Assembly: GCA_964559565.1 (NCBI GenBank)
Contig: CAZLJI010000001.1
Span: 24,053-88,052 of the forward strand
Source of the DNA: an uncultured Ignavibacteriaceae bacterium
GTDB lineage: Bacteria; Bacteroidota; Ignavibacteria; Ignavibacteriales; Ignavibacteriaceae
Length of the DNA stretch: 64,000 bases
Direction: 5' to 3'
Part shown: in pieces, positions 1-64,000 of the stretch
Layout: each line of letters opens with the position of its first letter
Numbering within the stretch: position 1 is the first letter of the stretch
Made by a program: the position numbers and the translations under genes
Notes under the pieces: generated by a model
Database searches by the model: none
What the model was told of the DNA's origin: nothing
The model's input: the letters and a program-made list of their open reading frames with translations, nothing else

Positions 1-2535
1 TACGTTTGCAGCATTAAAGCTTATGTCATCGTATCCATTGTAACCCATAATTATATATCTAGTATTTCCTAGTTGACTTCCAGAATCTGTTTGAAAAATA
101 TGAGCTGCATTGAAATTTGAAAACTTACAATTCAAAATATTCATAACATTAGGTTGATTTACGCCCATGCTTTCACTTCCAGCGTAAATTCCATAATGAT
201 ACATTGTGTAAGTATGATTTAGTGTTAATCCTGTACCATCAAATTCACAATTGTCTAATGTAATAGTTCCAGAGCCACCAGTATCTGGATCTGTTACAAA
301 ACAAAGCATATATGTATTTTCAGAAGCTGCAAGAGCAGCAAATTTTTTAATAGATGTATTTTTAAACGTTAACCTCGTGGTATTGTTATCTACTCTTGAT
401 CCTATTATTACTCCTTGTTGGTATCCAGCGGTAGCATGAGCAAAATTTGTAATCATCACACCATCGAATACTATATTGGAGTTAACCGCAGCAGAATTTA
501 CATTGATAGATATTGCAGATCCTTCGTAAAAATTAGCACTTCCTGCAATAAGCTTTCCGTTTCCAATTAATTTTAAATTGGAAATGTTGATATCGCATCC
601 AATAGCACCAGAAGTTAACACTAAATTTAACATGGTAGCGTCCATGGTGCTAGTGTGTTTTATTGCAACTGTTAATCCATCTACCACCAAAGACATATCT
701 GCATTGCTAATACTGAAATCAACAAAGCCAACCGTCGTTCCACCATAAGCAGAATAACAATCAAGCACACAATTTCTGATTAAAATTCTTCCTTCATTTG
801 TGTATGTTCTTATTCCTCTCTTTGATGTCCCTCTAACAGAACAATAACAATCTTCAACAGAAACATATTTCGATGCATGAACTGATATTCCTTCACCATC
901 TACTGTCCCACCACTAGAACCATCAATAATGCAGTTTTTTATAACAGTAGAAATACAGCTATCTACATCAAGAGCCAATCCGTTTGATGCCGCGGTAATG
1001 TAACAATTCTCAACAGAAGAATATAAATATCCAATAAGCAAAACATAATCGCTAAAAGAGCACTCGGATATCCTAGACAAAACACCAGTAAATCTAGTCT
1101 GTCCTGTAAATGTAGCTTTTTGTATATCACATTTATTTACTACGTTGACTAACTGTTTGCCAGCACCGGTCCATTGGCCACCGTAAATCTTAACAGCGCC
1201 AATAAACGTCAACCCGTAACCACTTGAATGAGAAAAAGTAATTGTTGCTCCATTAAATGTATCCTCGAAAAGTATACATATTGCCTTATTGTATGTTTTG
1301 CTTGTGGTTACAGTGTAACTTCCGTCTTTTACAAAAATTACTCCACCATCAGCGCTACCGGCCTCAATAGCATCCATAGCTGCAACAAGCGCTGTTGCAC
1401 CTTTAAAATCATAATTACCAGTACCAGCTTCGCTAATCGTGTATGTAACAGGTTTTCTGTCCCTCGATGCTTCTACCTGAAACATTACATCGTTGTTAAC
1501 GGTTGGTCTAAATCCAATAGCCGTGTCTTGAATAGCACCAACATTCAAATCTTCGTATTCAGATTCGATTGAATATTGACACCATAATGTTCCTGTGTAC
1601 GCCTCGCTTAGATGAATATACGGATTGGTGTAAAACCCATTTGCATCTGCATCTGAAGAAGGATTTAGTTGTGCCGTATTAGATGAGTTGTATACTTCTA
1701 GTACCCAAAATTTTTGATTGTTGGTGACATATCCTATTTCATAGGTGTGAGGCACGCCGCTATTATTGGCAAACAATCCGAAATACCTTGATGCTGTTCC
1801 TGTTGCTCCTTTTCCAATGTATACTTTCCCAGTTATCTGAAATTCAGAAACTGCCGATAATGCATAAGATGAAACCGTTGTCTTTGCAAAAATCTTCTTT
1901 ACGGTAGCGGTTTCTGTAGCATATGGATTCGATGAAGATGCCGCAGGAGAGGCACCATCAAGCGCATCCTTTTCGTCTGAAGTCGGTATATTTGCATAAT
2001 CCGTTTGATCTATAAGACCATACTTATTGTTTCCAGAAATTGGAGTAGGAAGTGTTATTGCATTAGAGTCGGTTGAATCCTGTGAAATGTAAGAATTGAT
2101 TATCGTGGTAGCTCCCATAGGGATAGATATCTTACAAATTGTAACCGAGTTTGTATCCCTATCAGCCGATTCACCTATCTTTAAGTATGCAGCCGTTTGT
2201 GAGCTTTGCGCGTACACAACATCACACCATAAATAATAAGTTAAAGCACCTCCGCTTGCATCGAAATCAAAATTCAAATCAAAAGAAGCATCATACCTTA
2301 CCGCAAGTTTGTATCCATCATCTGCGTTTTCGTGTAGCAAAAAACTATCTGAATCACTGCCAATTGTTATTGATATTCCTTTAGCTGGAACACTCTGCTG
2401 TGTAACAACAAAACCACGATAGACGCCTCGCGGAATAGCACTTAATTCGCGATTTATCGAAGACGAAACATACGGCTCCTGCCATCGTGTTTTTACTTTT
2501 GTTTGGTCAATAGATGTAGTTTTTATTATTGTCAT
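1..2535 (-). CDS. tail fibre/tailspike paralogue, partial (C-terminal end lies beyond window edge)
   Basis: Minus-strand frame is open from the ATG at 2535-2533 to position 1 (845 codons, no stop, so absent from the ORF track). The N-terminus MTIIKTTSIDQTKVKTRWQEPYVSSSINRELSAIPRGVYRGF matches the upstream 983-aa ORF at about 70 percent over the first ~50 residues. TAATG stop/start overlap at 2533-2537. Confidence 0.75.
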   Translation of the reverse strand, partial: MTIIKTTSIDQTKVKTRWQEPYVSSSINRELSAIPRGVYRGFVVTQQSVPAKGISITIGSDSDSFLLHENADDGYKLAVRYDASFDLNFDFDASGGALTYYLWCDVVYAQSSQTAAYLKIGESADRDTNSVTICKISIPMGATTIINSYISQDSTDSNAITLPTPISGNNKYGLIDQTDYANIPTSDEKDALDGASPAASSSNPYATETATVKKIFAKTTVSSYALSAVSEFQITGKVYIGKGATGTASRYFGLFANNSGVPHTYEIGYVTNNQKFWVLEVYNSSNTAQLNPSSDADANGFYTNPYIHLSEAYTGTLWCQYSIESEYEDLNVGAIQDTAIGFRPTVNNDVMFQVEASRDRKPVTYTISEAGTGNYDFKGATALVAAMDAIEAGSADGGVIFVKDGSYTVTTSKTYNKAICILFEDTFNGATITFSHSSGYGLTFIGAVKIYGGQWTGAGKQLVNVVNKCDIQKATFTGQTRFTGVLSRISECSFSDYVLLIGYLYSSVENCYITAASNGLALDVDSCISTVIKNCIIDGSSGGTVDGEGISVHASKYVSVEDCYCSVRGTSKRGIRTYTNEGRILIRNCVLDCYSAYGGTTVGFVDFSISNADMSLVVDGLTVAIKHTSTMDATMLNLVLTSGAIGCDINISNLKLIGNGKLIAGSANFYEGSAISINVNSAAVNSNIVFDGVMITNFAHATAGYQQGVIIGSRVDNNTTRLTFKNTSIKKFAALAASENTYMLCFVTDPDTGGSGTITLDNCEFDGTGLTLNHTYTMYHYGIYAGSESMGVNQPNVMNILNCKFSNFNAAHIFQTDSGSQLGNTRYIIMGYNGYDDISFNAANV

Positions 2536-5486
2536 TATGGCCTCGCTGTAACACTACTAACACTATTCATCGTTGCATCTCCGGTATTAACAAGACCAGA
2601 TTTATAAGATATAGCTCCTGGTCCAGCATTTCCAATTGCGCTGCATCTAGATGTAGTATCCGATGCATACAATATGTATTCTGATCCAGAATTGTACATT
2701 CTAATCGTATTAGCGTTGAATGCATGAGCCTGTATCGAACCAGAAACATCAATGTAGCAATAATACTCTAGTCCAACATCTGCTACTTCCATGAAACTGT
2801 TTCCAGAAATAACATTATGGTAAGACGTGCTATAAACCCTTGCTAATAATGTTCCTGCCAATCCGCTTCCTGTGTTTATCGCAGAAATGTTGTTGCAAAA
2901 AACAAGAGTTCCTGCATTTGATGAAGATCCATGAAACAAATCATTGTGCCTACAATTATTAAACTTGTTTCCAATAACCTCCAGAAAAGCTGTATTGTAA
3001 TTTGAAAAGCTTATTGCTCTATGCCTAGTAGATGTGGTTCCAGTCGTAGCAGACGACAAATCAAAATCACAATTTCTTATCCTTATTACTCCAAGTGAAT
3101 TGTCATATGTATGTGCAATACTATTCCAATGTGAATAACTAATTGTTCCTTGGCTTGTAAAATGCGTTGTAGTAAGTCTATTTATCTCGACAAAACTTTT
3201 TACTGACATGGCCGCTACATTGACAAGAACGCCACAATAATCAGGATCCGTAGAAGTAGAAGGAAGAAGACCAACTACATTCATTCCGTCAAGCAAAAGC
3301 TTTGTTTGGCATGCACTTGAATCGGTAACAAGTAACCTCACTATACCATTGTTTTTTACACTTGGTGCACCTGGACCAGCGCCTGTAATAGTATTTCCAC
3401 CTCCAAATATTTCTACATTTCTAAATGTTATGTTTACACTCTTGGCCAAAGTTGACGCGCTAGTAACGTTGATCAAGGGACTAGTAAGATCACTAGAATG
3501 ATTTACATATATAAATACTCCATCAAAAACAGCAGAAACTACTCCGATGAAACTATCGTGGTAGTTGATATAATCAATTGATCCTTGCGTGCTGTTTGAT
3601 CCAAATGCCGCATTTACATGTATTACAGAATTGTAAAAATAAACATTTTCAAATACCGCAAGCGAATCAATTTTTATGGCCGAATATGCTTGCTTACATT
3701 TAAAAACACAATTGCTAAAAGATGACGAAAGAAGCGACGAATTCGCACCAAAGTATATTCCAGGACCATTTACGCTGTTATCTCTTGTACCGTCAAAAAC
3801 ACAATTTTCAAATTTTACCTTCTTGTTTGTTCCACTAATAGTTACAGCATAAGCACCATATGATTTAAAAACACAATTTATCCATGCTGAACCATTGGAT
3901 ATAGCCGACAAATTAGCCATTGTGTTTGCAGCAGCAGAGTCAAATAAACATGATTCAACTACCCCGCCATCAGGAGTTGTGTCTGAACCAGATCCATGGA
4001 AAAATACTTTTCCATATACAAACTTGCAAAACCTTAAAAAATATTGTGAATCAAATTGTATTAAACTAGCAGATGTAGTTGCGCCAATCTCCATATTCTC
4101 AATTTGCACCGGAGCGGAAAATGTGATCCCGTATCCACTCGAATGTTGCATTGACAATTTACATGTTGCATCAATAGAACCATGAACCCATCCGACCGTC
4201 TCGCCGATTATTTTAACCGGTTTTGTATATGTCCTGTTCCCGCCGCTCCCTGTCCATACATACGTTCCGTTTTTTACGTATATAACTGCCGAATCAACTG
4301 TAAGACTTGCCTCTAATGCATCAAGTGCATCAATAATCGCATTCGTTCCTGCGAAATCAACCTTTTGCGTGGTGTCCGTTGAAACGGTATATGTAACAGG
4401 TTTCCTTGCGTTGTTAGCATATGCGAGATAAGAAACATCTACAGAAGCGCCGGTTCTTCCGCTCCCTGTTTCTGAAATAAAGCCATTTACAGATTGGTTC
4501 CCAAATGTACTAGCAACACCACATCTAACCCCTATGCTTGTTACGCCGATTGCGCCTGACAAATAAATGTAAGGATTGGTGTAAAATCCGTTCGCATCTG
4601 CATCAGAAGAAGGTGTCACTTGCGCCGAATCATCGTTTTTGTAGATAGCCGTTATGTAAATCTTGCTTGTAGATGCACCTGAATATTCATCTGGATTCTG
4701 GTTTCCACCAGTAAAGGAATAAAGACCAAACCATTTTTGTGCCGTGCCTATTGCACCTGTTCCAATGTAATAGCTTCCAGTAAGTTGGAATTTTGTTTCT
4801 GTACCTGCAAGACTCCCAACTGTAACCAATGTCGGTTTGGCAAAAACTTTATCTACCGTAGCATCTTCTGTTACGTATGGATTCGACGAAGACGCCGCAG
4901 GAGAAGCATTCGATAATCCGTCTTTTTCATTAGCACTTGGAATCTGATTGAATAGCGTTTGATTCAATAAAGCCCAATCAGAATTGTTAGCTGGAATTGG
5001 AGTTGTTAATGTGTCATTGTCTTCCCAGTCTTGCGTAATGTAAGAATTGATAATAATGGTTGCGCCCATAGGAATTACTATCTTGCAAATTGTAATTGAA
5101 TCCGCGCTTCTGTCGCCAGATTCTCCCACAAGCAAAGATCCACTAGTAGCAGAACTTACGGTGTAATTCACATCACACCAAATGTAATAAGTTAAAGCAC
5201 CTCCGCTTGCATCAAAATCAAAATTCAAAGTCAAATCAGAATCATATCTAACTACAGTAGAATGACCGCTTGTGAAAGATCTGTGTACCAGAAGACTATC
5301 TTCGCCAGTCTTTATTTTTAACAAAACACCTTTTGCCGGTGTTGATTGTTGCGTAACCTCAAAGCCTCTATACACACCACGAGGTAACGCGGCCATTTCT
5401 TTGTTTATTGCAGATGAAACGTATGGCTCTTCCCATCGTGTTTTAATCTTTGATGTATCTATTACGCTTGTTTTAATCGTAGTCAT
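2535..5486 (-). CDS. tail fibre/tailspike with right-handed beta-helix (pectate-lyase-like) repeats
   Basis: 983-aa ORF with RBS AAGGTGGA before the ATG, at the distal end of the baseplate operon. Repeated short beta-helix-rung motifs are visible: IENMEIG, VESCLFD, WINCVFK, FENCVFD, FSNCVFK, FRNVEIF, IRNCDFD, FCNNIS. The N-terminal part is paralogous to the next ORF. Confidence 0.7.
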   Translation of the reverse strand: MTTIKTSVIDTSKIKTRWEEPYVSSAINKEMAALPRGVYRGFEVTQQSTPAKGVLLKIKTGEDSLLVHRSFTSGHSTVVRYDSDLTLNFDFDASGGALTYYIWCDVNYTVSSATSGSLLVGESGDRSADSITICKIVIPMGATIIINSYITQDWEDNDTLTTPIPANNSDWALLNQTLFNQIPSANEKDGLSNASPAASSSNPYVTEDATVDKVFAKPTLVTVGSLAGTETKFQLTGSYYIGTGAIGTAQKWFGLYSFTGGNQNPDEYSGASTSKIYITAIYKNDDSAQVTPSSDADANGFYTNPYIYLSGAIGVTSIGVRCGVASTFGNQSVNGFISETGSGRTGASVDVSYLAYANNARKPVTYTVSTDTTQKVDFAGTNAIIDALDALEASLTVDSAVIYVKNGTYVWTGSGGNRTYTKPVKIIGETVGWVHGSIDATCKLSMQHSSGYGITFSAPVQIENMEIGATTSASLIQFDSQYFLRFCKFVYGKVFFHGSGSDTTPDGGVVESCLFDSAAANTMANLSAISNGSAWINCVFKSYGAYAVTISGTNKKVKFENCVFDGTRDNSVNGPGIYFGANSSLLSSSFSNCVFKCKQAYSAIKIDSLAVFENVYFYNSVIHVNAAFGSNSTQGSIDYINYHDSFIGVVSAVFDGVFIYVNHSSDLTSPLINVTSASTLAKSVNITFRNVEIFGGGNTITGAGPGAPSVKNNGIVRLLVTDSSACQTKLLLDGMNVVGLLPSTSTDPDYCGVLVNVAAMSVKSFVEINRLTTTHFTSQGTISYSHWNSIAHTYDNSLGVIRIRNCDFDLSSATTGTTSTRHRAISFSNYNTAFLEVIGNKFNNCRHNDLFHGSSSNAGTLVFCNNISAINTGSGLAGTLLARVYSTSYHNVISGNSFMEVADVGLEYYCYIDVSGSIQAHAFNANTIRMYNSGSEYILYASDTTSRCSAIGNAGPGAISYKSGLVNTGDATMNSVSSVTARP

Positions 5487-45120: not shown

Positions 45121-47676
45121 TTACTTTTTTCCTATCGCATGTTTTAGCTCGTTAAAGAATCCTTTTGTTTGAGCTAAATGGTTTCCCATTACACGTTGCT
45201 CGCTAAGCAATCTTCCAAGTTCGTGTTCTACACGCCGCTCATGATCTCTGTTTCCAGAAAATAGGCTTTTCTCTAAATCATTTTTTGAAACATTGAAATT
45301 TCTATACCGAATTGGTCTATTGGGTACACTAACTGCTATTGTTCCTTTGGGATTGCCTGGTACATCAACTGATTCAAACGCACCTTGTTGTTGTGCTGCA
45401 TCTTGTTTCATTTCTTGTCTTTTTTGATCAAATATATTTTCAATCTCTTGATCGCTCATTCCAAACACTTTGCTTAAAATCCAATGCTTTGAAACTAATG
45501 CATCCATCTGTTGTGCAAATTGCGCCCTTGTGTTTTGTACCTCTAGTTGTGCTAGTTCAAAGATAGCCGAAGGCACGGCCATTTTTATATTGAATTCAAT
45601 AAAGGATGGATCTATACCCATTGCAGATAAATGAACTTCTGCAACGTGCCTCATTCCTTCCCTATATTCATTTTGAATTCTTAATACCGCTCTAGAAAAT
45701 CTGACATCTTCAGAGCTATTATGAACAAACACACCAGCTGATAATGCAAAATTGTGATGTTCAATAACTTCAATGTCATATGTATCAATTACTGGACCTT
45801 CTGAAATCGATGAAACATTATAGTTTGATTCAATGTTATCAAAAGATAAAGACTTGAGATTATCACCATGGTTCAAATCACATGCATCAACATAACTCCC
45901 ATCTCTCATCATAAATGGATGATCTGGAGTACATGTTATTTTTTCACCATTATCAAGTTCAACTATAACAGTTTCCGCATTCGCTCTTGTCAGCCTTGGG
46001 TTGATTGCTTTTCCTGGAACAATGTTCCCATTTTTGTCAATACTATAAACCCAATGCTCTCCACCATCATTGGCCATTTGCTCTATTGTTTTTTCGGTTC
46101 CATCAAGAAGTGATATCTTTGTGTCTCCAGCCAAACACAGCGTTGCCCTTGAAGGCATATTTTCATCATATCCAAGATATGCTTTTGGAACTTTTAACGC
46201 CGCAAAAAGTTTAGATCTAAAATATTCTATATCTTCTATCCCGGTCCATGTCGGTGTATTAAGAACATCCGCCCTTACTACTTCTTTTGAATCTCTTACA
46301 GGCAAATAAAAATCTTCATCAGATGAATTCTTGAGATATACACCGGCCGAAACAGCAAAATTGTGATGTTTTTCTATTGTTAATGTATATGTGTCTTCTG
46401 TTTCAACTAGAATGTTTATAGAAGAAACTTTTATTGGATTATCTTTTAATGGCATCAAAAACGATGTATCGCCCAAATATTGTGCCTCTTGATAACTACC
46501 ATCACGCAACATAAATTTATGATCTGGTGTGCATCGAATTTTCTCGCCATTATCAAGAGTTACCTCTACAAGCTCGGCGTTTCCACGTGTCTTGCCAGCC
46601 CAAACTATCTTTCCTGGTACGACCTTATTGCTGTTTTCTCGATCAATAGAATAAACCCAGTTTTCTTTTCCTGACTCATGTTCGGCAATGACATCCTTAA
46701 TCGAGAGTGTTCTACCGTCTAACAATGGAATAGCTGTATCACCCGTTAAACATAGTGGATTATATCTAAGGTTTAACGTTCCTGTTCTTGGATCGACAAA
46801 TTTGTTTTTCTTAAATGTTTGCGAAACACGATGTAAATATTTTTCTGCATCCTGCGGGCTCATTCTTCCAACATCAACATAAAAAGCAAACCTAGAAGGT
46901 GCACGTGATAAACGACTTATTAAAGCTGCATCTTCTAAAAGCATCAATCGCTTCCAAATCCATCTCGCTGGCTCTAATATTCCAAGACCATACATTGCTC
47001 GGCGACGTGCAGAACGGAGTCGCATGAACGCCACTCGCCAAGGTTCAAATAATACAACTCCGCTAGATTGGTCTCTTCCCACACCCCTATCAAATTCTAT
47101 TTTCTCAAATGTTTGAGTAGGAATATTAAAATATCCCTTAAAACTTTGAACGTATCCAACGCAAAGATTGTTGTGGTCTTCTAGTCTTCTAATAGTTGGA
47201 GATGGAAGAAAATTTAATCCCTGTACACCATTCTCATTTACAAGTATTTCCTCTGCTAGTAATCCATACTTGCAAAGCATTCGAATGCTTTCCCATGCCT
47301 CTGAATCTACTTTAACCTTATCCCAGAACATCTTGTTCAATTGTTCCTGAATGTCACCATCTTCACATTCAGTCCAAAGAACATGCCTCATTTGATTGTC
47401 TAAAACTGTGGAATCGTCGCTATAAATATCAAGAGTAGCCGAACACTCAGAATACTCGTCCATTCTTTCATAATCAATAAACCTTGCCATTAAGGCATTA
47501 TCAACCTGAAGTTGATCTGTAATGGACGTATAGCCCATTACCCCGGCAGCATAATTTCCGTCTATATCGTACCGAAGATCATTTATGTTAGCGCCACCTG
47601 AAGCATCATCTAATTCTTTTTTATCCCTAGAAAAAACACTACGGATAAAACCGACAATCTTACTTCCTATCGGCAT
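45121..47676 (-). CDS. portal protein, T4 gp20-like, interrupted by two mini-inteins
   Basis: 851 aa. MYGLGILEPARWIWKRLMLLEDAALISRLSRAPSRFAFYVDVG...LRYNPL / SSDEDFYLPVR...ALKVPKAYLGYDE...RATL / SSEDVRFSRAVLRIQ reproduces the gp20 signature once residues 309-450 and 514-653 are removed, leaving 569 aa. Confidence 0.85.
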   Translation of the reverse strand: MPIGSKIVGFIRSVFSRDKKELDDASGGANINDLRYDIDGNYAAGVMGYTSITDQLQVDNALMARFIDYERMDEYSECSATLDIYSDDSTVLDNQMRHVLWTECEDGDIQEQLNKMFWDKVKVDSEAWESIRMLCKYGLLAEEILVNENGVQGLNFLPSPTIRRLEDHNNLCVGYVQSFKGYFNIPTQTFEKIEFDRGVGRDQSSGVVLFEPWRVAFMRLRSARRRAMYGLGILEPARWIWKRLMLLEDAALISRLSRAPSRFAFYVDVGRMSPQDAEKYLHRVSQTFKKNKFVDPRTGTLNLRYNPLCLTGDTAIPLLDGRTLSIKDVIAEHESGKENWVYSIDRENSNKVVPGKIVWAGKTRGNAELVEVTLDNGEKIRCTPDHKFMLRDGSYQEAQYLGDTSFLMPLKDNPIKVSSINILVETEDTYTLTIEKHHNFAVSAGVYLKNSSDEDFYLPVRDSKEVVRADVLNTPTWTGIEDIEYFRSKLFAALKVPKAYLGYDENMPSRATLCLAGDTKISLLDGTEKTIEQMANDGGEHWVYSIDKNGNIVPGKAINPRLTRANAETVIVELDNGEKITCTPDHPFMMRDGSYVDACDLNHGDNLKSLSFDNIESNYNVSSISEGPVIDTYDIEVIEHHNFALSAGVFVHNSSEDVRFSRAVLRIQNEYREGMRHVAEVHLSAMGIDPSFIEFNIKMAVPSAIFELAQLEVQNTRAQFAQQMDALVSKHWILSKVFGMSDQEIENIFDQKRQEMKQDAAQQQGAFESVDVPGNPKGTIAVSVPNRPIRYRNFNVSKNDLEKSLFSGNRDHERRVEHELGRLLSEQRVMGNHLAQTKGFFNELKHAIGKK
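45718..46137 (-). mobile_element. mini-intein 2 in portal (140 aa, no endonuclease domain)
   Basis: Starts CLAGDTKISLLDG, has TPDHPF and ends HHNFALSAGVFVHN, followed by Ser +1. It is clearly related to intein 1 (WVYSID, VPGK, LDNGEKIxCTPDHxFMxRDGSY). Confidence 0.85.
46327..46752 (-). mobile_element. mini-intein 1 in portal (142 aa, no endonuclease domain)
   Basis: Starts CLTGDTAIPLLDG (block A), has TPDHKF (block B) and ends HHNFAVSAGVYLKN, followed by Ser +1. The penultimate residue is Lys rather than His. Confidence 0.8.
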
Positions 47677-60648: not shown

Positions 60649-60819
60649 ATGAGTATAGTTAGGATTGCGTTTTCGATATCGGTAGAGTTGGCACGGCGAA
60701 TCGAGGAATACATTAAAAAACAAGATGTGCCGCCCTCGCGAAGCCAAGTCATTGCCACGGCCATTAAAAAATTCCTTGATGACGAGGAAGAAAAATGCAC
60801 CCAACAATCCGAAAACTAA
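60649..60819 (+). CDS. ribbon-helix-helix (CopG-like) regulator
   Basis: 56 aa, below the ORF-track cutoff. RBS AGGAG lies 7 nt upstream. MSIVRIAFSISVELARRIEEYIKKQDVPPSRSQVIATAIKKFLDD has an RHH layout. Confidence 0.55.
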   Translation: MSIVRIAFSISVELARRIEEYIKKQDVPPSRSQVIATAIKKFLDDEEEKCTQQSEN

Positions 60820-63800
60820 AACTTCGCACTTTCATATCGCGGTATGATGGCACCATATGTACCATCTGCCGTGAAAAAGTTCCGCTTGGATCCGAGATTG
60901 CGCTTATCCCTGATTCGATTCGGCTCACGTGGCATGAGTTTGGCCTTTGTGGGAAAGTCCACAAGTATGCCCACACCACGTGCTTGCCCCACATAATAGA
61001 CATCACCTATAGACCATTTATCGCCGAAGCAACGACCAAACTGCTACATGATACCGATCCAAACTGGCCTAAAGACGACATTGGATTTAATGCCGCAGAT
61101 TTTTATTTTGCGCAACGTGTTCATTCAAACAGCTATCCAGAATTTTGCCTCCATGAGCTGGCAAAAAGACTACAAAAATACATAAATACACAACTCGGCG
61201 GAAATGAGTCAGAACTAGGAAAAGGGATTATTTCTGCCGCGGAAGCAATCGAAAAAGAACCGCACCCGGATGCGCAGTCAGAACGATTGGAGCGAACAGA
61301 ACAAAAAGAAATAGCAGAAACAAAAGAACTAAAAACCATCACGCTTCCAGGTGACATAACATTTGCCATTCACCCAACATCTATCCCCAAAAAAATATTC
61401 ATAAACACCCTCCCGCAAAATACCTTTTCCGTTACGCTCGAACCTCCTTGGATAAACAAGTCTCACGAAATAGTAAAAGAAAACATAAAGCATTGTGGTG
61501 CAAGATGGAACAAAGAACTCAAGGTATGGACCATGAGCGAAGCACAATTAGTCCACGCTCTTGATACCGCCATGCAAAAACAAGATATCATTGTCACTCC
61601 CAGTGCTGCCGGTGCATTGCATGGTGTGCTAACTAGACGTGCACTCGCCACGACAATAGATGATACAGGACTGGACACAATAAAAGAAAAATTAAAAGAA
61701 GCACTCCCAGAAGGAAAAAATCTTTATCCGTTCCAGGTTGCATGCGTCGCATTTTTGGAAGCTGCTCGCGGAAATGCTCTTATTGCAGACGAGATGGGGT
61801 GCGGAAAAACCCTTGAATCAATCGCATACCTTGCAACACAACCAGAACTTCGTCCGGCCGTCGTAGTTGTGCCTGCAATCGTTGCCGGAAACTGGCAAAA
61901 AGAATTTAAAGGATGGACGAAAAACGAAAAAATCCAAAGAATAAAAACAGGCAAAGATAAAATCGAAAGAGATAATTCTATTATCATTATCACTTACGAT
62001 TTGCTGAAAAAACATGCACAAACAATTGTCGGATTAAATCCAAAAGCAATCATAGCAGACGAATGTTTTCCAGGGAACACCAATGTTCAAACAAAAAATG
62101 GAAAAATGACAATAAAAAGTATCGTTGAATCCAATGATGAAATATTGGTTAAATCATATGACTTTAACTTAAAAAAAATTGTGTTTAAGCCTGTTGTTGG
62201 AAAAATAAAAATTAAAAAAAATGGACATTTAATAAAATTAACACATGATTATGGAGAAATAATATGCACTCCAAATCATAAAATATGGACAAAGGAAAGA
62301 GGATACATTGAAGCAGAAAAGATCAAAAGTGGAGAAACACTGCGAACGGTGCGGGAAGAAATTTCAAACACCCAAAAAAGGGAAGGCAACAGCAAGATTT
62401 TGCTCTCGGTCATGCGCATCAAAGCATTCTCTTTCAAAAAAAGAAACAAAAGAAAAATTAAGGTTAGCACTAACAAAAAAAATATATATATCATGCGAAA
62501 TATGCAAAAAAATTTTTACTATAAAGCCAAGCAGGAAGCAAAGATTTTGCAGTACAAGTTGCTCGGCGAAATGGAGAACAAGTCTTCCCTATATAAAAGC
62601 CATATCATCAAAAACAGTACAAAAGATGATTCAATCAAATATAGGAAGAAAAAATCCATCTGCATCAAAAAGAATGAAAAGAATGAACCAAGATCCGGAA
62701 TTCAGAAAAAAAGCATTAGAAGGAACAATAAAAAGACACAAAGAAAACCCATCTTTCTTAAAAAGAGGCGGAAAGCCAATGATAACAGTTCCGCAAAAAA
62801 TGTTATTAGACCAACTTGGATATCCGCTAGAGTGGCTAGAATACAAAATAGTATTAGGAAAAAAGAAAAAAGAATTAGAATCTACAGAAAACAAAGACCT
62901 AAAATCACTTCCAAATTTTTACTCTGTAGACATAGTGCATCTACCATCAAAAACAGCCATAGAAGTAGACGGAGAAACTCACAAATCCAAAAAATGGCAA
63001 TGGATAGACAGAAGAAAAAAAATTGTATTGGAGAGTCTCGGGTGGCAAGTGTTGAGGTTCTGGAACAAAGATATATTGACGAACATGGAATTTGTTGTGA
63101 CAACAATAAATTCGTTTATAACCTCGAAGTAAAAGACACGCATAATTATATTGCTGATAATGTATTAGTTTCAAATTGTCAATTTCTCAAAAACTCAAAA
63201 AGCCAGCGCACGGAAGTGTTCATGGCAGTTGCAAAAACAAAATCAATTCGATCTACGATTGGTCTTTCCGGTACCCCTATTGTGAATCGACCAATAGAAT
63301 TTTACCCTATGTTAAAACTTCTCAGACCTGCTGATTTTTCTAATTGGAAATTTTTTACCAAACGTTATTGCTCTGGTCACTATGAAACAATTTACATCGC
63401 CCGTGGACACGGTGCTACAAAATCAGTTTGGGTTTGTTCCGGATCAAGCAACGAAAAAGAACTATCATCCAGAATCAAGGACGTGATGATTCGACGTTTG
63501 AAAAAAGACGTTCTGTCCGAACTACCACCGAAGCACCGCAATTCAATTGAAATTGAAATCTCATCAGCCGAAAGAGATGAATACAATAATATCGTTGAAT
63601 CTTGTTACACCGGAGAACCTGGAGACCATCTCGCCGCAATCAATTGTGCTAGACAACTAGTCGGAAAATACAAAGCACAAAAAGCACTTGATCTAATCGA
63701 CATGTATATGGACCAGAACCAACCTCTCCTTGTCTTTGCGCATCACCACGAAGTAATGAATAAACTCGAAGAGGAAATCAAAGGGAAGTATAGTTACGGA

Positions 63801-64000
63801 AAAATCGACGGAACAATTTCGCAAGATAAACGCACTCAATTAGTAGAAGACTTTCAATCCGGTAAAATCAATCTTCTTATTCTTAGTATTAAAGCTGCCG
63901 GAGTAGGGATCACTCTAACAAGATCGTCAAACGTCATATTCCTGGAACGCGCATGGACCCCCGCAGACGAGGAACAAGCAGAAGACCGAACCCATCGCCC
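60795..64000 (+). CDS. SNF2-family helicase, partial (runs off window), interrupted by an intein
   Basis: The frame is open from the ATG at 60795 to 64000, so it is not in the track. Motifs: I LIADEMGCGKT; II AIIADE / CQFLKN, split by the intein; III IGLSGTPIVNRP; V-VI LSIKAAGVGITLT...FLERAWTPADEEQAEDRTHR. Confidence 0.8.
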   Translation, partial: MHPTIRKLKLRTFISRYDGTICTICREKVPLGSEIALIPDSIRLTWHEFGLCGKVHKYAHTTCLPHIIDITYRPFIAEATTKLLHDTDPNWPKDDIGFNAADFYFAQRVHSNSYPEFCLHELAKRLQKYINTQLGGNESELGKGIISAAEAIEKEPHPDAQSERLERTEQKEIAETKELKTITLPGDITFAIHPTSIPKKIFINTLPQNTFSVTLEPPWINKSHEIVKENIKHCGARWNKELKVWTMSEAQLVHALDTAMQKQDIIVTPSAAGALHGVLTRRALATTIDDTGLDTIKEKLKEALPEGKNLYPFQVACVAFLEAARGNALIADEMGCGKTLESIAYLATQPELRPAVVVVPAIVAGNWQKEFKGWTKNEKIQRIKTGKDKIERDNSIIIITYDLLKKHAQTIVGLNPKAIIADECFPGNTNVQTKNGKMTIKSIVESNDEILVKSYDFNLKKIVFKPVVGKIKIKKNGHLIKLTHDYGEIICTPNHKIWTKERGYIEAEKIKSGETLRTVREEISNTQKREGNSKILLSVMRIKAFSFKKRNKRKIKVSTNKKNIYIMRNMQKNFYYKAKQEAKILQYKLLGEMENKSSLYKSHIIKNSTKDDSIKYRKKKSICIKKNEKNEPRSGIQKKSIRRNNKKTQRKPIFLKKRRKANDNSSAKNVIRPTWISARVARIQNSIRKKEKRIRIYRKQRPKITSKFLLCRHSASTIKNSHRSRRRNSQIQKMAMDRQKKKNCIGESRVASVEVLEQRYIDEHGICCDNNKFVYNLEVKDTHNYIADNVLVSNCQFLKNSKSQRTEVFMAVAKTKSIRSTIGLSGTPIVNRPIEFYPMLKLLRPADFSNWKFFTKRYCSGHYETIYIARGHGATKSVWVCSGSSNEKELSSRIKDVMIRRLKKDVLSELPPKHRNSIEIEISSAERDEYNNIVESCYTGEPGDHLAAINCARQLVGKYKAQKALDLIDMYMDQNQPLLVFAHHHEVMNKLEEEIKGKYSYGKIDGTISQDKRTQLVEDFQSGKINLLILSIKAAGVGITLTRSSNVIFLERAWTPADEEQAEDRTHR
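61261..61275 (-). repeat. GC-rich quasi-palindrome, copy f (inside the helicase coding sequence)
   Basis: Plus strand reads CGCACCCGGATGCGC and encodes P-H-P-D-A in a linker of the helicase N-terminal region. Confidence 0.9.
62064..63176 (+). mobile_element. intein (371 codons) in SNF2 motif II
   Basis: It is in frame with the helicase. The N-terminus is CFPGNTNVQT...GEIICTPNHKIWT (blocks A and B). The C-terminus is FVYNLEVKDTHNYIADNVLVSN followed by Cys +1 (blocks F and G, penultimate Ser). The insert is much more A-rich than the flanking exteins. Confidence 0.8.
62308..63132 (+). CDS. DUF559/Vsr-like PD-(D/E)XK endonuclease with two N-terminal zinc-finger-like units, encoded in the +1 frame inside the intein
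   Basis: 274 aa. TTG start 5 nt after GGAAAGAGG. CERCGKKF...FCSRSC and CEICKKIF...FCSTSC form the finger-like units. The C-terminus FYSVDIVHLPSKTAIEVDGETHKSKKWQWIDRRKKIVLESLGWQVLRFWNKDI fits the DUF559 signature (vDf....iEvDG..H....D..R...L...G..VlRf). Confidence 0.7.
   Translation: MKQKRSKVEKHCERCGKKFQTPKKGKATARFCSRSCASKHSLSKKETKEKLRLALTKKIYISCEICKKIFTIKPSRKQRFCSTSCSAKWRTSLPYIKAISSKTVQKMIQSNIGRKNPSASKRMKRMNQDPEFRKKALEGTIKRHKENPSFLKRGGKPMITVPQKMLLDQLGYPLEWLEYKIVLGKKKKELESTENKDLKSLPNFYSVDIVHLPSKTAIEVDGETHKSKKWQWIDRRKKIVLESLGWQVLRFWNKDILTNMEFVVTTINSFITSK

What the first reader, a model, noticed from the sequence alone, without database searches (positions are those of the whole stretch)
62064..63176. 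Helicase intein whose homing endonuclease is encoded out of frame while the host frame is kept open (about 0.8 kb of dual coding)
The SNF2 helicase is split inside motif II: AIIADE | CFPGNT...TPNHKIW ... VYNLEVKDTHNYIADNVLVSN | CQFLKN. The 1113-nt insert is in frame with the helicase and has Hint blocks at both ends. Read in the helicase frame, its middle ~240 codons are Lys/Arg-rich low complexity. The +1 frame (62308-63132, TTG start after GGAAAGAGG) instead encodes a clean zinc-finger plus DUF559/Vsr-like endonuclease. I checked every TAA/TAG/TGA from 62341 to 63129: all 31 are in the third frame and none is in the helicase frame or the endonuclease frame, although the strand is very A-rich. 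None of the ~36 T-ending codons of the endonuclease ORF is followed by AA, AG or GA. At the 3' end the conserved nuclease motif GWQVLRFWN overlaps the Hint strand RVASVEVLEQ in the other frame. Large inteins normally carry their endonuclease in frame. I do not know of a described case of a separately initiated, frame-shifted HEG nested in an intein with the host frame under selection to stay open.
Basis: partly seen in the sequence, partly recalled or inferred. Interest (0 to 1): 0.9.

Follow-up and report, generated by a model that had tools for sequence, protein, structure and literature searches.

The report
Phage intein with overlapping out-of-frame endonuclease
A phage helicase gene carries a self-splicing intein whose homing endonuclease is read in a second, overlapping frame while the helicase frame is kept free of stop codons; this kind of layout is already described, but this version uses a different endonuclease family and turns out to be common and unannotated in phage genomes.

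Summary
An SNF2-type helicase of a tailed phage is interrupted at motif II (DE|C) by a 1113-nt intein (62064-63176). A 274-codon ORF in the +1 frame (62308-63132) encodes two zinc-finger-like modules plus a DUF559/Vsr-like (EDxHD) nuclease.

The helicase frame has 0 stops across it. Synonymous shuffling expects 11.6, and 0 of 100,000 shuffles gave none. Other genes in the window carry 7.9 stops per 100 codons in that frame.

It is not an assembly artefact. 107 non-identical loci show the same nesting, always in the +1 phase and with 0 host-frame stops. They are mostly viral contigs, and cultured phages (CP-T1, phi673, Nahant Vibrio phages) show the same nesting. Family-wide, a T at the endonuclease wobble position before AA/AG/GA occurs 0 times in 7,288 contexts.

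Substitution patterns and AlphaFold models agree. The middle of the insert codes only for the endonuclease, and the two ends code for Hint.

Out-of-frame endonucleases in inteins are described (Gorbalenya 1998; Gogarten-lab preprints 2025 and 2026). I found no report of a sense-strand +1 Vsr-like version in a contiguous intein. It is a new variant of a known kind, related to Dassa's "fractured genes".

The parts
60795..62063 (+). N-extein of the SNF2-family helicase (the start codon is provisional: first ATG after the stop at 60780). It ends in motif II ...AIIADE.
   Evidence: Frame translation. Pfam SNF2-rel_dom 3.2e-15, profile positions 6-133.
62064..63176 (+). Intein, read in the helicase frame (371 codons, 0 stops). 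Key residues are Cys1, TPNH (T69/H72), terminal Asn371 and +1 Cys at 63177.
   Evidence: Pfam Intein_splicing 5.4e-11, above the cut-off. Hint N and C HMM hits 8e-24 and 2e-19. The AlphaFold model matches the NrdJ-1, DnaX, RecA and gp41-1 inteins.
62064..62363 (+). Hint N-lobe (intein residues 1-100).
   Evidence: pLDDT 86-98 in the frame-0 model.
62364..63023 (+). Host-frame 'linker' (intein residues 101-320). It is Lys/Arg-rich, has no recognisable domain and is only kept open. The real coding frame here is +1.
   Evidence: pLDDT mostly 44-57, apart from residues 141-170 (10-residue blocks 73-85), which lie within the predicted helix 138-176. No Pfam domain. In close relatives, substitutions follow the endonuclease frame: 193/106/68 at host codon positions 1/2/3.
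63024..63176 (+). Hint C-lobe (intein residues 321-371), ending ...HNYIADNVLVSN|C.
   Evidence: pLDDT 67-98, with strands at 322-333, 350-356, 361-364 and 367-370. Hint C HMM 2e-19.
62245..62262 (+). Vestigial upstream start of the endonuclease frame: ATG-ATT-ATG-GAG-AAA-TAA. It is homologous to the ATG start used in L001, L017 and L028 (+181 from the intein start), but here a TAA closes it after five codons.
   Evidence: Comparison of start regions; sequence.
62298..62303 (+). Shine-Dalgarno-like AGAGGA, 4 nt upstream of TTG 62308 (the GAGG core ends 5 nt upstream).
   Evidence: Sequence. L006 and L086 have an ATG 3 nt from the homologous position, preceded by AAGGAG/GGAGG.
62308..63132 (+). 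Homing-endonuclease ORF in the +1 frame: 274 codons plus TAA, with a TTG start.
   Evidence: ORF list. Pfam DUF559 above the cut-off. PDB profile hits 3HRL 6e-13 and 3R3P (I-Bth0305I) 0.0026. AlphaFold mean pLDDT 77.9, with top fold matches 3R3P and 3HRL.
62341..62415 (+). Zinc-finger-like module 1 of the endonuclease (C12, C15, C32, C36: CxxC...FCSxSC).
   Evidence: Weak Pfam zf-FCS hits, below the cut-off. The predicted beta-hairpin 7-22 spans C12/C15 only. Assignment as a zinc finger is inferred.
62494..62562 (+). Zinc-finger-like module 2 (C63, C66, C81, C85). This is the most conserved N-terminal motif, RFCSxSCSAKWR.
   Evidence: Columns invariant in alignment A1. PDB FCS zinc fingers 2L8E 0.0034 and 2W0T 0.049.
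62920..63117 (+). Nuclease core (endonuclease residues 205-270). Invariant residues are D208, E219, D221, H225, D234, G245, W246, L249, R250 and W252.
   Evidence: Pfam DUF559 match to residues 205-270. Invariant columns. pLDDT 79-94 over the 10-residue blocks 201-270.
63039..63068 (+). Segment that is functional in both frames. The +1 frame reads the nuclease motif GWQVLRFWN and frame 0 reads the Hint strand RVASVEVLEQ.
   Evidence: Both readings are conserved across the family (consensus RVESxEILE in A3, GWKVLRFWN in A1). The strand is confidently predicted.
63177..64000 (+). C-extein of the helicase (CQFLKN..., SNF2 C-terminal half and Helicase_C). It runs off the window.
   Evidence: Pfam SNF2-rel_dom profile positions 137-254 and Helicase_C 7.8e-19.

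Best explanation
This is a contiguous class-1 intein inserted between the E and the C of helicase motif II (DE|CQ) of a phage SNF2-type helicase. It carries a free-standing-type homing endonuclease gene that overlaps it in the +1 frame. The endonuclease has two zinc-finger-like modules plus a Vsr-like/EDxHD (DUF559) nuclease.

Two proteins are made from one stretch of DNA.

(1) Ribosomes translating the helicase read straight through the insert in frame 0. The two Hint lobes (residues 1-100 and 321-371) fold around about 220 residues of meaningless, probably disordered linker and splice themselves out, restoring DECQFLKN.

(2) Ribosomes starting internally at TTG 62308, behind AGAGGA, make the 274-residue endonuclease. 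This enzyme is expected to cut intein-less alleles at the motif II coding sequence and so drive homing of the whole element.

The helicase frame stays open because any stop there destroys the helicase. In the +1 phase this costs the endonuclease nothing. Every host-frame stop must begin with a T at the endonuclease's wobble position, and NNT to NNC is always synonymous. This offers a possible reason why only this phase appears in the sample. The endonuclease's first ~19 codons and last ~36 codons overlap folded Hint segments, so about 165 nt are functional in both frames.

What is shown: the anatomy, the stop avoidance, conservation of the arrangement, frame-specific substitution patterns, and the fold and family assignments. 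What is inferred: splicing, internal initiation, endonuclease activity and target, and homing.
For: Anatomy and family assignments.

Stop avoidance in the window: 0 host-frame stops against 11.6 expected, with 0 of 100,000 shuffles reaching zero. Genome background is 7.9 stops per 100 codons.

Independent replication:
- The four closest endonuclease homologs in a 5.8-billion-protein database are nested the same way. They have 0, 0, 1 and 0 host-frame stops against 11.1, 16.4, 10.9 and 4.9 expected.
- A free-standing homolog has 42 such stops.
- Of 141 loci with a nuclease-domain match, 121 (107 non-identical) have 0 host-frame stops, always with the endonuclease in the +1 phase. 117 have a Hint N hit and 118 a Hint C hit, and nearly all junctions read ...DE|C[FVL] and [HS]N|[CS].

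Wobble rule across the family: T before AA/AG/GA occurs 0 times in 7,288 contexts (C occurs 1,735 times), whereas T/(T+C) is 0.615 elsewhere. Split and free-standing relatives show no avoidance.

Frame-specific evolution: in close pairs, differences peak at host codon position 3 in the Hint-only parts (34/15/68 and 4/1/13). In the middle they peak at host position 1, which is endonuclease position 3 (193/106/68).

Own translation signals: ATG starts in 82 of 99 loci and SD-like motifs in 78 of 99. The window's TTG sits 3 nt from the position of the ATG in L006 and L086.

Host genes in 55 relatives: Intein_splicing 49, Helicase_C 39, ResIII 27, SNF2 17, DEAD 16, clamp-loader 6, terminase 2-3.

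Uninterrupted motif II in intein-less homologs: IIDE|CHKMKE.

Cultured phages with the same nesting, annotated only as helicase.

Precedent for the same logic in the dnaX intein.
Against: There is no expression, splicing or cleavage data for this element or any relative I found.

The window copy starts with TTG, and the ATG used by some relatives is closed by a stop. This particular endonuclease may therefore be weakly expressed or on its way to decay.

The penultimate intein residue is Ser (VSN), not the usual His, although the whole sub-clade shares this.

My SD search pattern is permissive in purine-rich sequence.

How about 220 residues of Lys/Arg-rich linker affect the folding and splicing of a helicase precursor is unknown.
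Confidence: 0.85

Rival explanations
1. Assembly or sequencing artefact: two compensating indels hide an ordinary in-frame intein-endonuclease fusion.
For: The region is A-rich with homopolymer runs, which are error-prone on some platforms.
Against: The same +1 phase and zero host-frame stops recur in 107 non-identical loci from unrelated samples and assemblers, over 29-65% GC. They also recur in independently sequenced cultured phages. An artefact would not produce 0 of 7,288 dangerous wobble T's. No in-frame version was seen.
Confidence: 0.01
2. The endonuclease is not separately initiated. It is reached from the helicase frame by ribosomal +1 frameshifting or transcriptional slippage on A-runs, giving an N-extein-HintN-endonuclease fusion.
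For: The window copy has only a TTG start. A7-A8 runs occur in and near the 5' part (for example 62373-62379). The endonuclease ORF always overlaps the end of the Hint N-lobe.
Against: 82 of 99 relatives have an ATG, and most have an SD-like motif at the right spacing. +1-frame stops lie close upstream of the starts. Start positions vary between relatives (+181 or +241), while no shared slippery motif is evident.
Confidence: 0.07
3. In this phage the endonuclease is a decaying passenger. Only the intein and the open helicase frame are still under selection, and the element is now inherited vertically.
For: The upstream ATG is lost to a stop and the start is TTG. The homing-cycle model predicts endonuclease decay after fixation (established knowledge, discussed).
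Against: The 274-codon ORF is intact. Every column that is invariant in the six-sequence alignment A1 is retained, including D208, E219, D221, H225 and D234. The AlphaFold core is confident. The third frame, which is not under selection, has 32 stops over the same span, so an unselected +1 frame would not stay open for 825 nt.
Confidence: 0.1
4. The element works as a split intein, as in Dassa's fractured genes: the helicase halves are made separately and joined in trans, and the open frame is incidental.
For: The same endonuclease family does occur between split-intein halves (L038-40, L044, L077, L085, L133, L134, L138). It also occurs in an overlap geometry with 18-21 host-frame stops (L072, L073, L082). 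The best structural match of the Hint model is the NrdJ-1 split intein.
Against: There is no stop after the N-lobe, and no separate start signal for a C-lobe gene was identified (not systematically searched). The stop avoidance is perfect here, and it disappears in the truly split relatives (T/(T+C) 0.84 against 0.81). This shows that read-through is what is selected.
Confidence: 0.03

Closest known systems
Non-canonical inteins with an endonuclease in an overlapping alternative frame: cyanobacterial dnaX intein (Gorbalenya 1998; Phillips, DeSimone & Gogarten, bioRxiv 10.64898/2026.09.14.751524)
   Same: A contiguous intein with an uninterrupted host frame, an in-frame middle predicted to be disordered, an endonuclease in a second sense-strand ORF with its own Shine-Dalgarno motif, and frame-dependent selection (searches compared).
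   Different: The dnaX endonuclease is a LAGLIDADG enzyme in a bacterial chromosomal gene. Here it is a zinc-finger plus Vsr-like/EDxHD enzyme in phage P-loop NTPase genes at the Walker B/motif II site. Here the endonuclease's conserved C-terminal motif also overlaps a Hint strand in nearly all members.
Actinobacteriophage non-canonical inteins (bioRxiv 10.1101/2025.01.02.630785)
   Same: Phage inteins whose endonuclease is not in the intein frame. The in-frame middle gives no recognisable structure. The proposed origin is invasion of a mini-intein by a free-standing endonuclease gene.
   Different: The Vsr-like endonucleases reported there are on the antisense strand, and the sense-strand out-of-frame case is EndoVII-like in frame 3. 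That paper states that Vsr-like endonucleases were otherwise known only from split inteins. The arrangement here, sense strand +1, is not among its four architectures.
'Fractured genes': split inteins with a free-standing Vsr-like endonuclease gene between the halves (Dassa et al. 2009, PMC2677866)
   Same: Judging by the shared Vsr-like fold, the endonuclease family appears to be the same. The hosts are also phage DNA-metabolism genes. The endonuclease 3' end overlaps the start of the C-terminal intein part (6-69 bp there, a median of 94 nt here). Split versions with this endonuclease are in my own sample. The Hint model best matches NrdJ-1, and it also matches gp41-1; from my own knowledge both are inteins from that GOS metagenomic data set.
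   Different: In fractured genes the host frame is terminated after the N-terminal intein half. A 27-51 nt spacer precedes the endonuclease gene, and the C-terminal half has its own start. Here the host frame is continuous and is selected to stay so.
I-Bth0305I (EDxHD family; Taylor et al. 2011, PMC3239194) and DUF559 protein 3HRL
   Same: The same nuclease fold and motif (profile hits and Foldseek probability 1.0).
   Different: I-Bth0305I is encoded in a group I intron in recA, not inside an intein, and its N-terminal DNA-binding region differs.
ShiLan insertion in phage methylases (PMC11855218)
   Same: An out-of-frame endonuclease hidden in an insertion whose host frame has no stops.
   Different: It has no Hint splicing domain and carries an HNH nuclease.

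Membership tests
Intein (Hint protein-splicing domain, class 1) | Nucleophile (Cys/Ser) as the first residue, and a nucleophile (Cys/Ser/Thr) as the first C-extein residue | tested here: met
   Cys at 62064-62066 and Cys at 63177-63179. Cys1 is invariant in 95 relatives.
Intein (Hint protein-splicing domain, class 1) | Block B TxxH motif | tested here: met
   TPNH at residues 69-72. H72 is invariant in alignments A3 and A4.
Intein (Hint protein-splicing domain, class 1) | C-terminal Asn | tested here: met
   Asn371 is invariant.
Intein (Hint protein-splicing domain, class 1) | Penultimate His (usual but not obligatory) | tested here: not met
   The window has ...LVSN|C. Its closest sub-clade shares Ser, while most other relatives have HN. 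From established knowledge, inteins lacking this His exist and splice, so this does not exclude membership.
Intein (Hint protein-splicing domain, class 1) | Profile match and Hint fold | tested here: met
   Pfam Intein_splicing 43 bits against a cut-off of 35.8. Foldseek matches to 45 intein/Hint structures at E <= 1e-3.
Intein (Hint protein-splicing domain, class 1) | In-frame insertion at a conserved host site, with extein continuity restored on removal | tested here: met
   The SNF2 profile is broken between positions 133 and 137. Intein-less homologs read IIDE|CHKMKE.
Intein (Hint protein-splicing domain, class 1) | Protein splicing activity | not testable with these tools
   Needs expression of the precursor.
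Vsr-like / EDxHD (DUF559) homing endonucleases | Sequence-profile membership | tested here: met
   Pfam DUF559 48.1 bits against a cut-off of 20.6. 3HRL 6e-13 and 3R3P 0.0026.
Vsr-like / EDxHD (DUF559) homing endonucleases | Nuclease fold | tested here: met
   Foldseek top hits are 3R3P (I-Bth0305I catalytic domain; TM-score normalised to the target, TMt, 0.64-0.66) and 3HRL (TMt 0.73), both with probability 1.0.
Vsr-like / EDxHD (DUF559) homing endonucleases | Conserved acidic/His catalytic residues | tested here: met
   D208, E219, D221, H225 and D234 are invariant among six homologs. The motif aligns to EaDGgqH...D of 3HRL. One-to-one mapping onto the I-Bth0305I active site was not checked.
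Vsr-like / EDxHD (DUF559) homing endonucleases | Site-specific cleavage of the empty allele and homing | not testable with these tools
   Indirect support only. The element occurs in several P-loop NTPase gene families at the same motif, and intein-less alleles exist.
Non-canonical inteins with an endonuclease in an overlapping alternative frame | Endonuclease ORF inside the intein in a different frame, with the host frame uninterrupted | tested here: met
Non-canonical inteins with an endonuclease in an overlapping alternative frame | The in-frame middle is not a folded domain; selection follows the endonuclease frame there | tested here: met
   pLDDT 44-57 over most of residues 101-320 and no Pfam hit. 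Substitutions 193/106/68 at host codon positions 1/2/3.
Non-canonical inteins with an endonuclease in an overlapping alternative frame | Independent translation start for the endonuclease | tested here: inconclusive
   TTG plus AGAGGA in the window. ATG plus SD-like motif in most relatives. No expression data.
Fractured genes (split intein + free-standing Vsr-like endonuclease; Dassa 2009) | Stop after the N-terminal intein half, an intergenic spacer, and a separately initiated C-terminal half | tested here: not met
   The host frame is continuous with 0 stops. The window is therefore a relative, not a member. True members with this endonuclease exist in the sample.

The most novel reading that the evidence does not exclude
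The window is one member of a large, so far undescribed clade of composite mobile elements: a mini-intein plus a zinc-finger/Vsr-like endonuclease locked in a +1 overlap. This clade has spread among the Walker B/motif II sites of phage helicases, clamp loaders and terminases. The overlapped contiguous form may be the ancestral state or hub from which at least some of Dassa's split-intein 'fractured genes' arose. The +1 phase may be universal because it is the only one in which the host frame can be kept open purely by synonymous T-to-C wobble changes.
Probability: 0.45. Interest if true: 0.7.

Novelty: new variant of a known kind. Interest (0 to 1): 0.6.

Why it matters
(1) It adds a fifth architecture to the short list of non-canonical inteins, and in these collections it is not rare. 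I found 107 non-identical loci. 181 proteins in a 5.8-billion-protein database match the host-frame profile at E <= 1e-10. 40 GenBank phage records match the endonuclease; in every listed record the feature annotated under the match is only the host gene (helicase, P-loop NTPase or an uninformative name), and the four I inspected show the +1 nesting.

(2) One endonuclease family is seen free-standing, between split-intein halves, in an overlap geometry with a broken host frame, and overlapped in a contiguous intein. This makes the old question of how inteins acquire endonucleases, and how split inteins arise, testable by phylogeny and experiment. Cultured phages are available for this (CP-T1, phi673, Nahant Vibrio phages).

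(3) The stop avoidance is a very clean natural example of selection acting only to keep a frame open: 0 of 7,288 contexts. A simple code-based rule (NNT to NNC) explains how the host frame can be kept open at no cost to the endonuclease and may explain the phase.

(4) It exposes an annotation blind spot. One-gene-per-locus callers miss these endonucleases, and the 'linker' may be mistaken for a low-complexity protein domain.

Tried and rejected
- Searching the 371-residue frame-0 insert alone against the protein database gave a single weak hit, a terminase mini-intein. Relatives appeared only through the endonuclease and later through a profile of 95 host-frame inteins.
- Gorbalenya 1998 (PMC147447) is not held in the library, so it is cited only through papers that cite it.
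- Searches for 'intein' with DUF559, EDxHD or 'alternative reading frame' found no description of this arrangement.
- The neighbour-joining tree of endonucleases places split and free forms in about six spots inside a mostly nested tree. It is star-like and has no support values, so I do not rely on it for the direction of evolution.
- I looked for nesting in the other sense phase. No locus with a nuclease-domain match has an open +2 frame across the endonuclease.
- I looked for antisense Hint domains next to the seven 'free' endonucleases and found none.
[quoted passage not shown] I treat this as a shared zinc-finger/DNA-binding module, not as evidence of an HNH nuclease, because the catalytic domain is DUF559.
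- Only four gap-free close pairs had more than a handful of differences (two of them a duplicated 12-difference comparison), and two pairs supply most of the differences, so the codon-position test rests mainly on those two.
Full report
**What is in the window**

The + strand frame containing 62064 is open from 60783 to the end of the window. It encodes an SNF2-type helicase: Pfam SNF2-rel_dom on both sides of the insert, and Helicase_C downstream.

The SNF2 profile is broken between positions 133 and 137, at motif II. The sequence reads AIIADE | CFPGNT ... NVLVSN | CQFLKN. The insert spans 62064-63176 and is 1113 nt (371 codons).

Read in the helicase frame, the insert passes Pfam's Intein_splicing threshold (43 bits against 35.8). 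It has Cys1, TPNH, a terminal Asn and a +1 Cys.

In the +1 frame, 62308-63132 is a 274-codon ORF. It starts with TTG, 4 nt after AGAGGA. Its product passes the DUF559 threshold (48 bits against 20.6) and has two CxxC...CSxxC modules with weak FCS zinc-finger similarity.

The window itself is a tailed phage. It encodes a tail sheath, baseplate, tape measure, major head protein and T4-like portal.

**Is the open helicase frame more than chance?**

Yes. Over the insert, the three frames carry 0, 10 and 45 stops. Within the +1 ORF the helicase frame has 0 stops and the third frame has 32.

I shuffled synonymous codons among positions encoding the same amino acid. This preserves the +1 protein and its codon usage. 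The shuffles give 11.6 ± 2.3 helicase-frame stops, and none of 100,000 shuffles reached zero.

A stop in the helicase frame needs a T at the third position of a +1 codon, followed by AA, AG or GA. Of the codons that precede such a doublet, 0 of 102 end in T. Of all other codons, 39 of 172 do (Fisher p = 2.9e-9).

The same frame relation in 25 other ORF segments of the window carries 4.3-12.9 stops per 100 codons (mean 7.9). That gives a Poisson probability of 4e-10 for none in 274 codons.

**Is it an artefact?**

No. Only five homologs of the +1 protein were found in the 5.8-billion-protein database. I fetched their contigs.

The four closest (31-46% identity; GC 29-65%) all sit in the +1 phase inside a Hint-flanked insert in a helicase-like ORF. 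They have 0, 0, 1 and 0 host-frame stops, against 11.1, 16.4, 10.9 and 4.9 expected. The fifth is free-standing and has 42 stops in that frame.

Scans of viral, metagenome and genome collections with the endonuclease alignment gave 168 more loci.

- Of 141 loci with a nuclease-domain match, 121 (107 non-identical over the matched endonuclease region) have no host-frame stop. In each, an open stretch of 2-4 kb encloses the endonuclease.
- The endonuclease is always +1 relative to the host frame and never in the other phase.
- Home-made Hint N and Hint C HMMs hit 117 and 118 of them respectively.
- Junctions are almost always ...DE|C[FVL]... and ...[HS]N|[CS].
- The one-stop locus, L004, is nearly identical to L167, which has none.

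**Which frame codes where?**

Among close pairs of relatives, differences in the Hint-only parts peak at host codon position 3 (34/15/68 and 4/1/13). In the middle they peak at host position 1, which is endonuclease position 3, then endonuclease positions 1 and 2 (193/106/68). Two pairs supply most of these differences.

AlphaFold2 on the frame-0 insert, with 67 related proteins as the alignment, gives three zones:
- residues 1-100: pLDDT 86-98;
- residues 101-320: mostly 44-57, apart from residues 141-170 (10-residue blocks 73-85), which lie within the predicted helix 138-176;
- residues 321-371: pLDDT 67-98.

The confident parts match intein structures: NrdJ-1 split intein, DnaX and RecA mini-inteins, and gp41-1.

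The +1 product folds with mean pLDDT 77.9; the 10-residue blocks from 161 to 270 range from 79 to 94. Its best structural matches are the I-Bth0305I catalytic domain (3R3P) and the DUF559 protein 3HRL.

So the two ends of the insert encode Hint. The middle encodes only the endonuclease, and there the helicase frame is merely kept open.

At both borders the two functions overlap. The endonuclease's first ~19 codons overlap Hint N-lobe residues 82-100. Its last ~36 codons overlap C-lobe residues 321-356. The frame-0 reading lies in a strand whose residue blocks have mean pLDDT 94 and 84.

Across the family, the endonuclease stop lies a median of 47 nt before the intein end. The 3' overlap with the Hint C region has a median of 94 nt.

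**Why +1, and how the frame is kept open**

In this phase, every host-frame stop (TAA, TAG, TGA) starts with a T at the endonuclease's wobble position. NNT and NNC are always synonymous. The host frame can therefore be cleared of stops without changing a single endonuclease residue.

The data fit this. In 107 nested loci (23,996 codons), T before AA/AG/GA occurs 0 times in 7,288 contexts, while C occurs 1,735 times. Elsewhere T/(T+C) is 0.615. Relatives in split-intein arrangements (0.84 against 0.81) and free-standing relatives (0.70 against 0.69) show no avoidance.

The rule itself follows from the genetic code. That it explains the exclusive +1 phase is my inference. Descent from a single ancestor is an alternative or additional cause.

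**Translation of the endonuclease**

Of the relatives, 82 of 99 have an ATG start and 78 of 99 have an SD-like motif. My SD pattern is permissive in purine-rich DNA.

In the window, the ATG used by L001, L017 and L028 (+181 from the intein start; 62245) is followed by TAA five codons later. The TTG at +244 sits 3 nt from the ATG of L006 and L086 (+241), behind a similar purine-rich SD. Internal initiation at 62308 is therefore the best reading, but it is inferred.

**Host range and relatives of the element**

In 55 complete host ORFs, Pfam finds Intein_splicing in 49, Helicase_C in 39, ResIII in 27, SNF2 in 17, DEAD in 16, clamp-loader (DNA_pol3_delta2) in 6 and terminase in 2-3. The element thus sits at the Walker B/motif II 'DE' of several P-loop NTPase families.

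Distant intein-less homologs of the window helicase read IIDE|CHKMKE without interruption.

Among the loci whose host frame is not open:
- nine (some of them duplicate contigs) show the 'fractured gene' layout: Hint N, a stop, a spacer, the endonuclease gene, then a short Hint C in another frame;
- three keep the overlap geometry but have 18-21 host-frame stops;
- seven have no Hint nearby on either strand.

GenBank phages carry the same nesting. Four were checked: Vibrio phage K391, Nahant Vibrio phage 1.194.O, V. cholerae phage CP-T1 gp10 and Corynebacterium phage phi673 gp43. In all four the endonuclease match is at +1 relative to the annotated helicase CDS, and no endonuclease gene is annotated.

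**Comparison with the literature**

The kind of arrangement is known. Endonucleases in alternative frames or on the antisense strand of inteins are credited to Gorbalenya 1998 (cited).

A 2025 preprint reports actinophage inteins with an EndoVII-like endonuclease in frame 3 and antisense Vsr-like and LAGLIDADG endonucleases. It states that Vsr-like endonucleases were otherwise known only from split inteins.

A 2026 preprint shows that the cyanobacterial dnaX intein has a LAGLIDADG endonuclease in a +2 ORF, with an SD, a disordered in-frame middle and frame-dependent dN/dS.

Dassa et al. 2009 described the Vsr-like family as free-standing genes between split-intein halves. The endonuclease 3' end overlaps the C-terminal intein part by 6-69 bp.

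I found no paper describing a sense-strand +1 Vsr-like endonuclease inside a contiguous intein. The library lacks most subscription journals, so this is absence of evidence only.

**Verdict**

The claim that no such case has been described is not.

The window holds a new variant of a known kind. The family it belongs to is large, strongly conserved in phase, unannotated in public phage genomes, and linked to the fractured-gene split inteins.

Splicing, internal initiation, nuclease activity and homing remain inferred.

Noticed in passing
window 45121-47676 (- strand); inteins at 46327-46752 and 45718-46137: The T4-like portal gene (851 aa) contains two related mini-inteins of 142 and 140 residues (CLTGDTAIP...GVYLKN|S and CLAGDTKIS...GVFVHN|S), with no endonuclease. 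Pfam Intein_splicing scores 5.7e-29 in two stretches. With the helicase intein, this phage carries at least three inteins in 64 kb.
   Followed up: partly
L072/L073 (Hint N 3694-3942, endonuclease 3851-4618, Hint C 4534-4671) and L082: These loci have the same +1 overlap geometry as the window, but the host frame carries 18-21 stops between the Hint lobes. They look like a contiguous overlapped intein that has become split, or a dead gene.
   Followed up: partly
L038-L040, L044, L077, L085, L133, L134, L138: Here the same endonuclease family appears in the classic 'fractured gene' layout. Hint N ends before the endonuclease ORF, only the last ~22 positions of Hint C follow it, and the two halves are in different frames.
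   Followed up: partly
L004 (host-frame stop inside 324-896) versus L167: These two loci have nearly identical endonucleases. L004 has one host-frame stop and ends ...LLVHT|S, while L167 has none and ends ...LLVHN|S. This could be a recent inactivation or a read error.
   Followed up: no
L174 and L177, helicase ORF 1500-4499, about residue 430-460: These intein-less-at-motif-II homologs of the window helicase appear to carry a different intein at the Walker A site (...YTVTHN|TAPAFAY, where L175 reads GVGKT|APAFAY).
   Followed up: no
GenBank phage records OZ196571.1 (K391), MG592563.1 and about 25 Nahant Vibrio phages, JQ177061.1 (CP-T1 gp10), MG324353.1 (phi673 gp43): The endonuclease ORF lies in the +1 phase inside a CDS annotated only as 'DNA helicase', 'putative helicase', 'coil containing protein' or 'P-loop NTPase'. 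The endonuclease gene is not annotated in any of the four records inspected.
   Followed up: partly
window 62308-62650 (+1 product residues 4-114): PHROGs families labelled 'HNH endonuclease' (phrog_1271, phrog_15471) match only the N-terminal zinc-finger region, not the nuclease. This suggests a DNA-binding module shared between different homing-endonuclease families.
   Followed up: no
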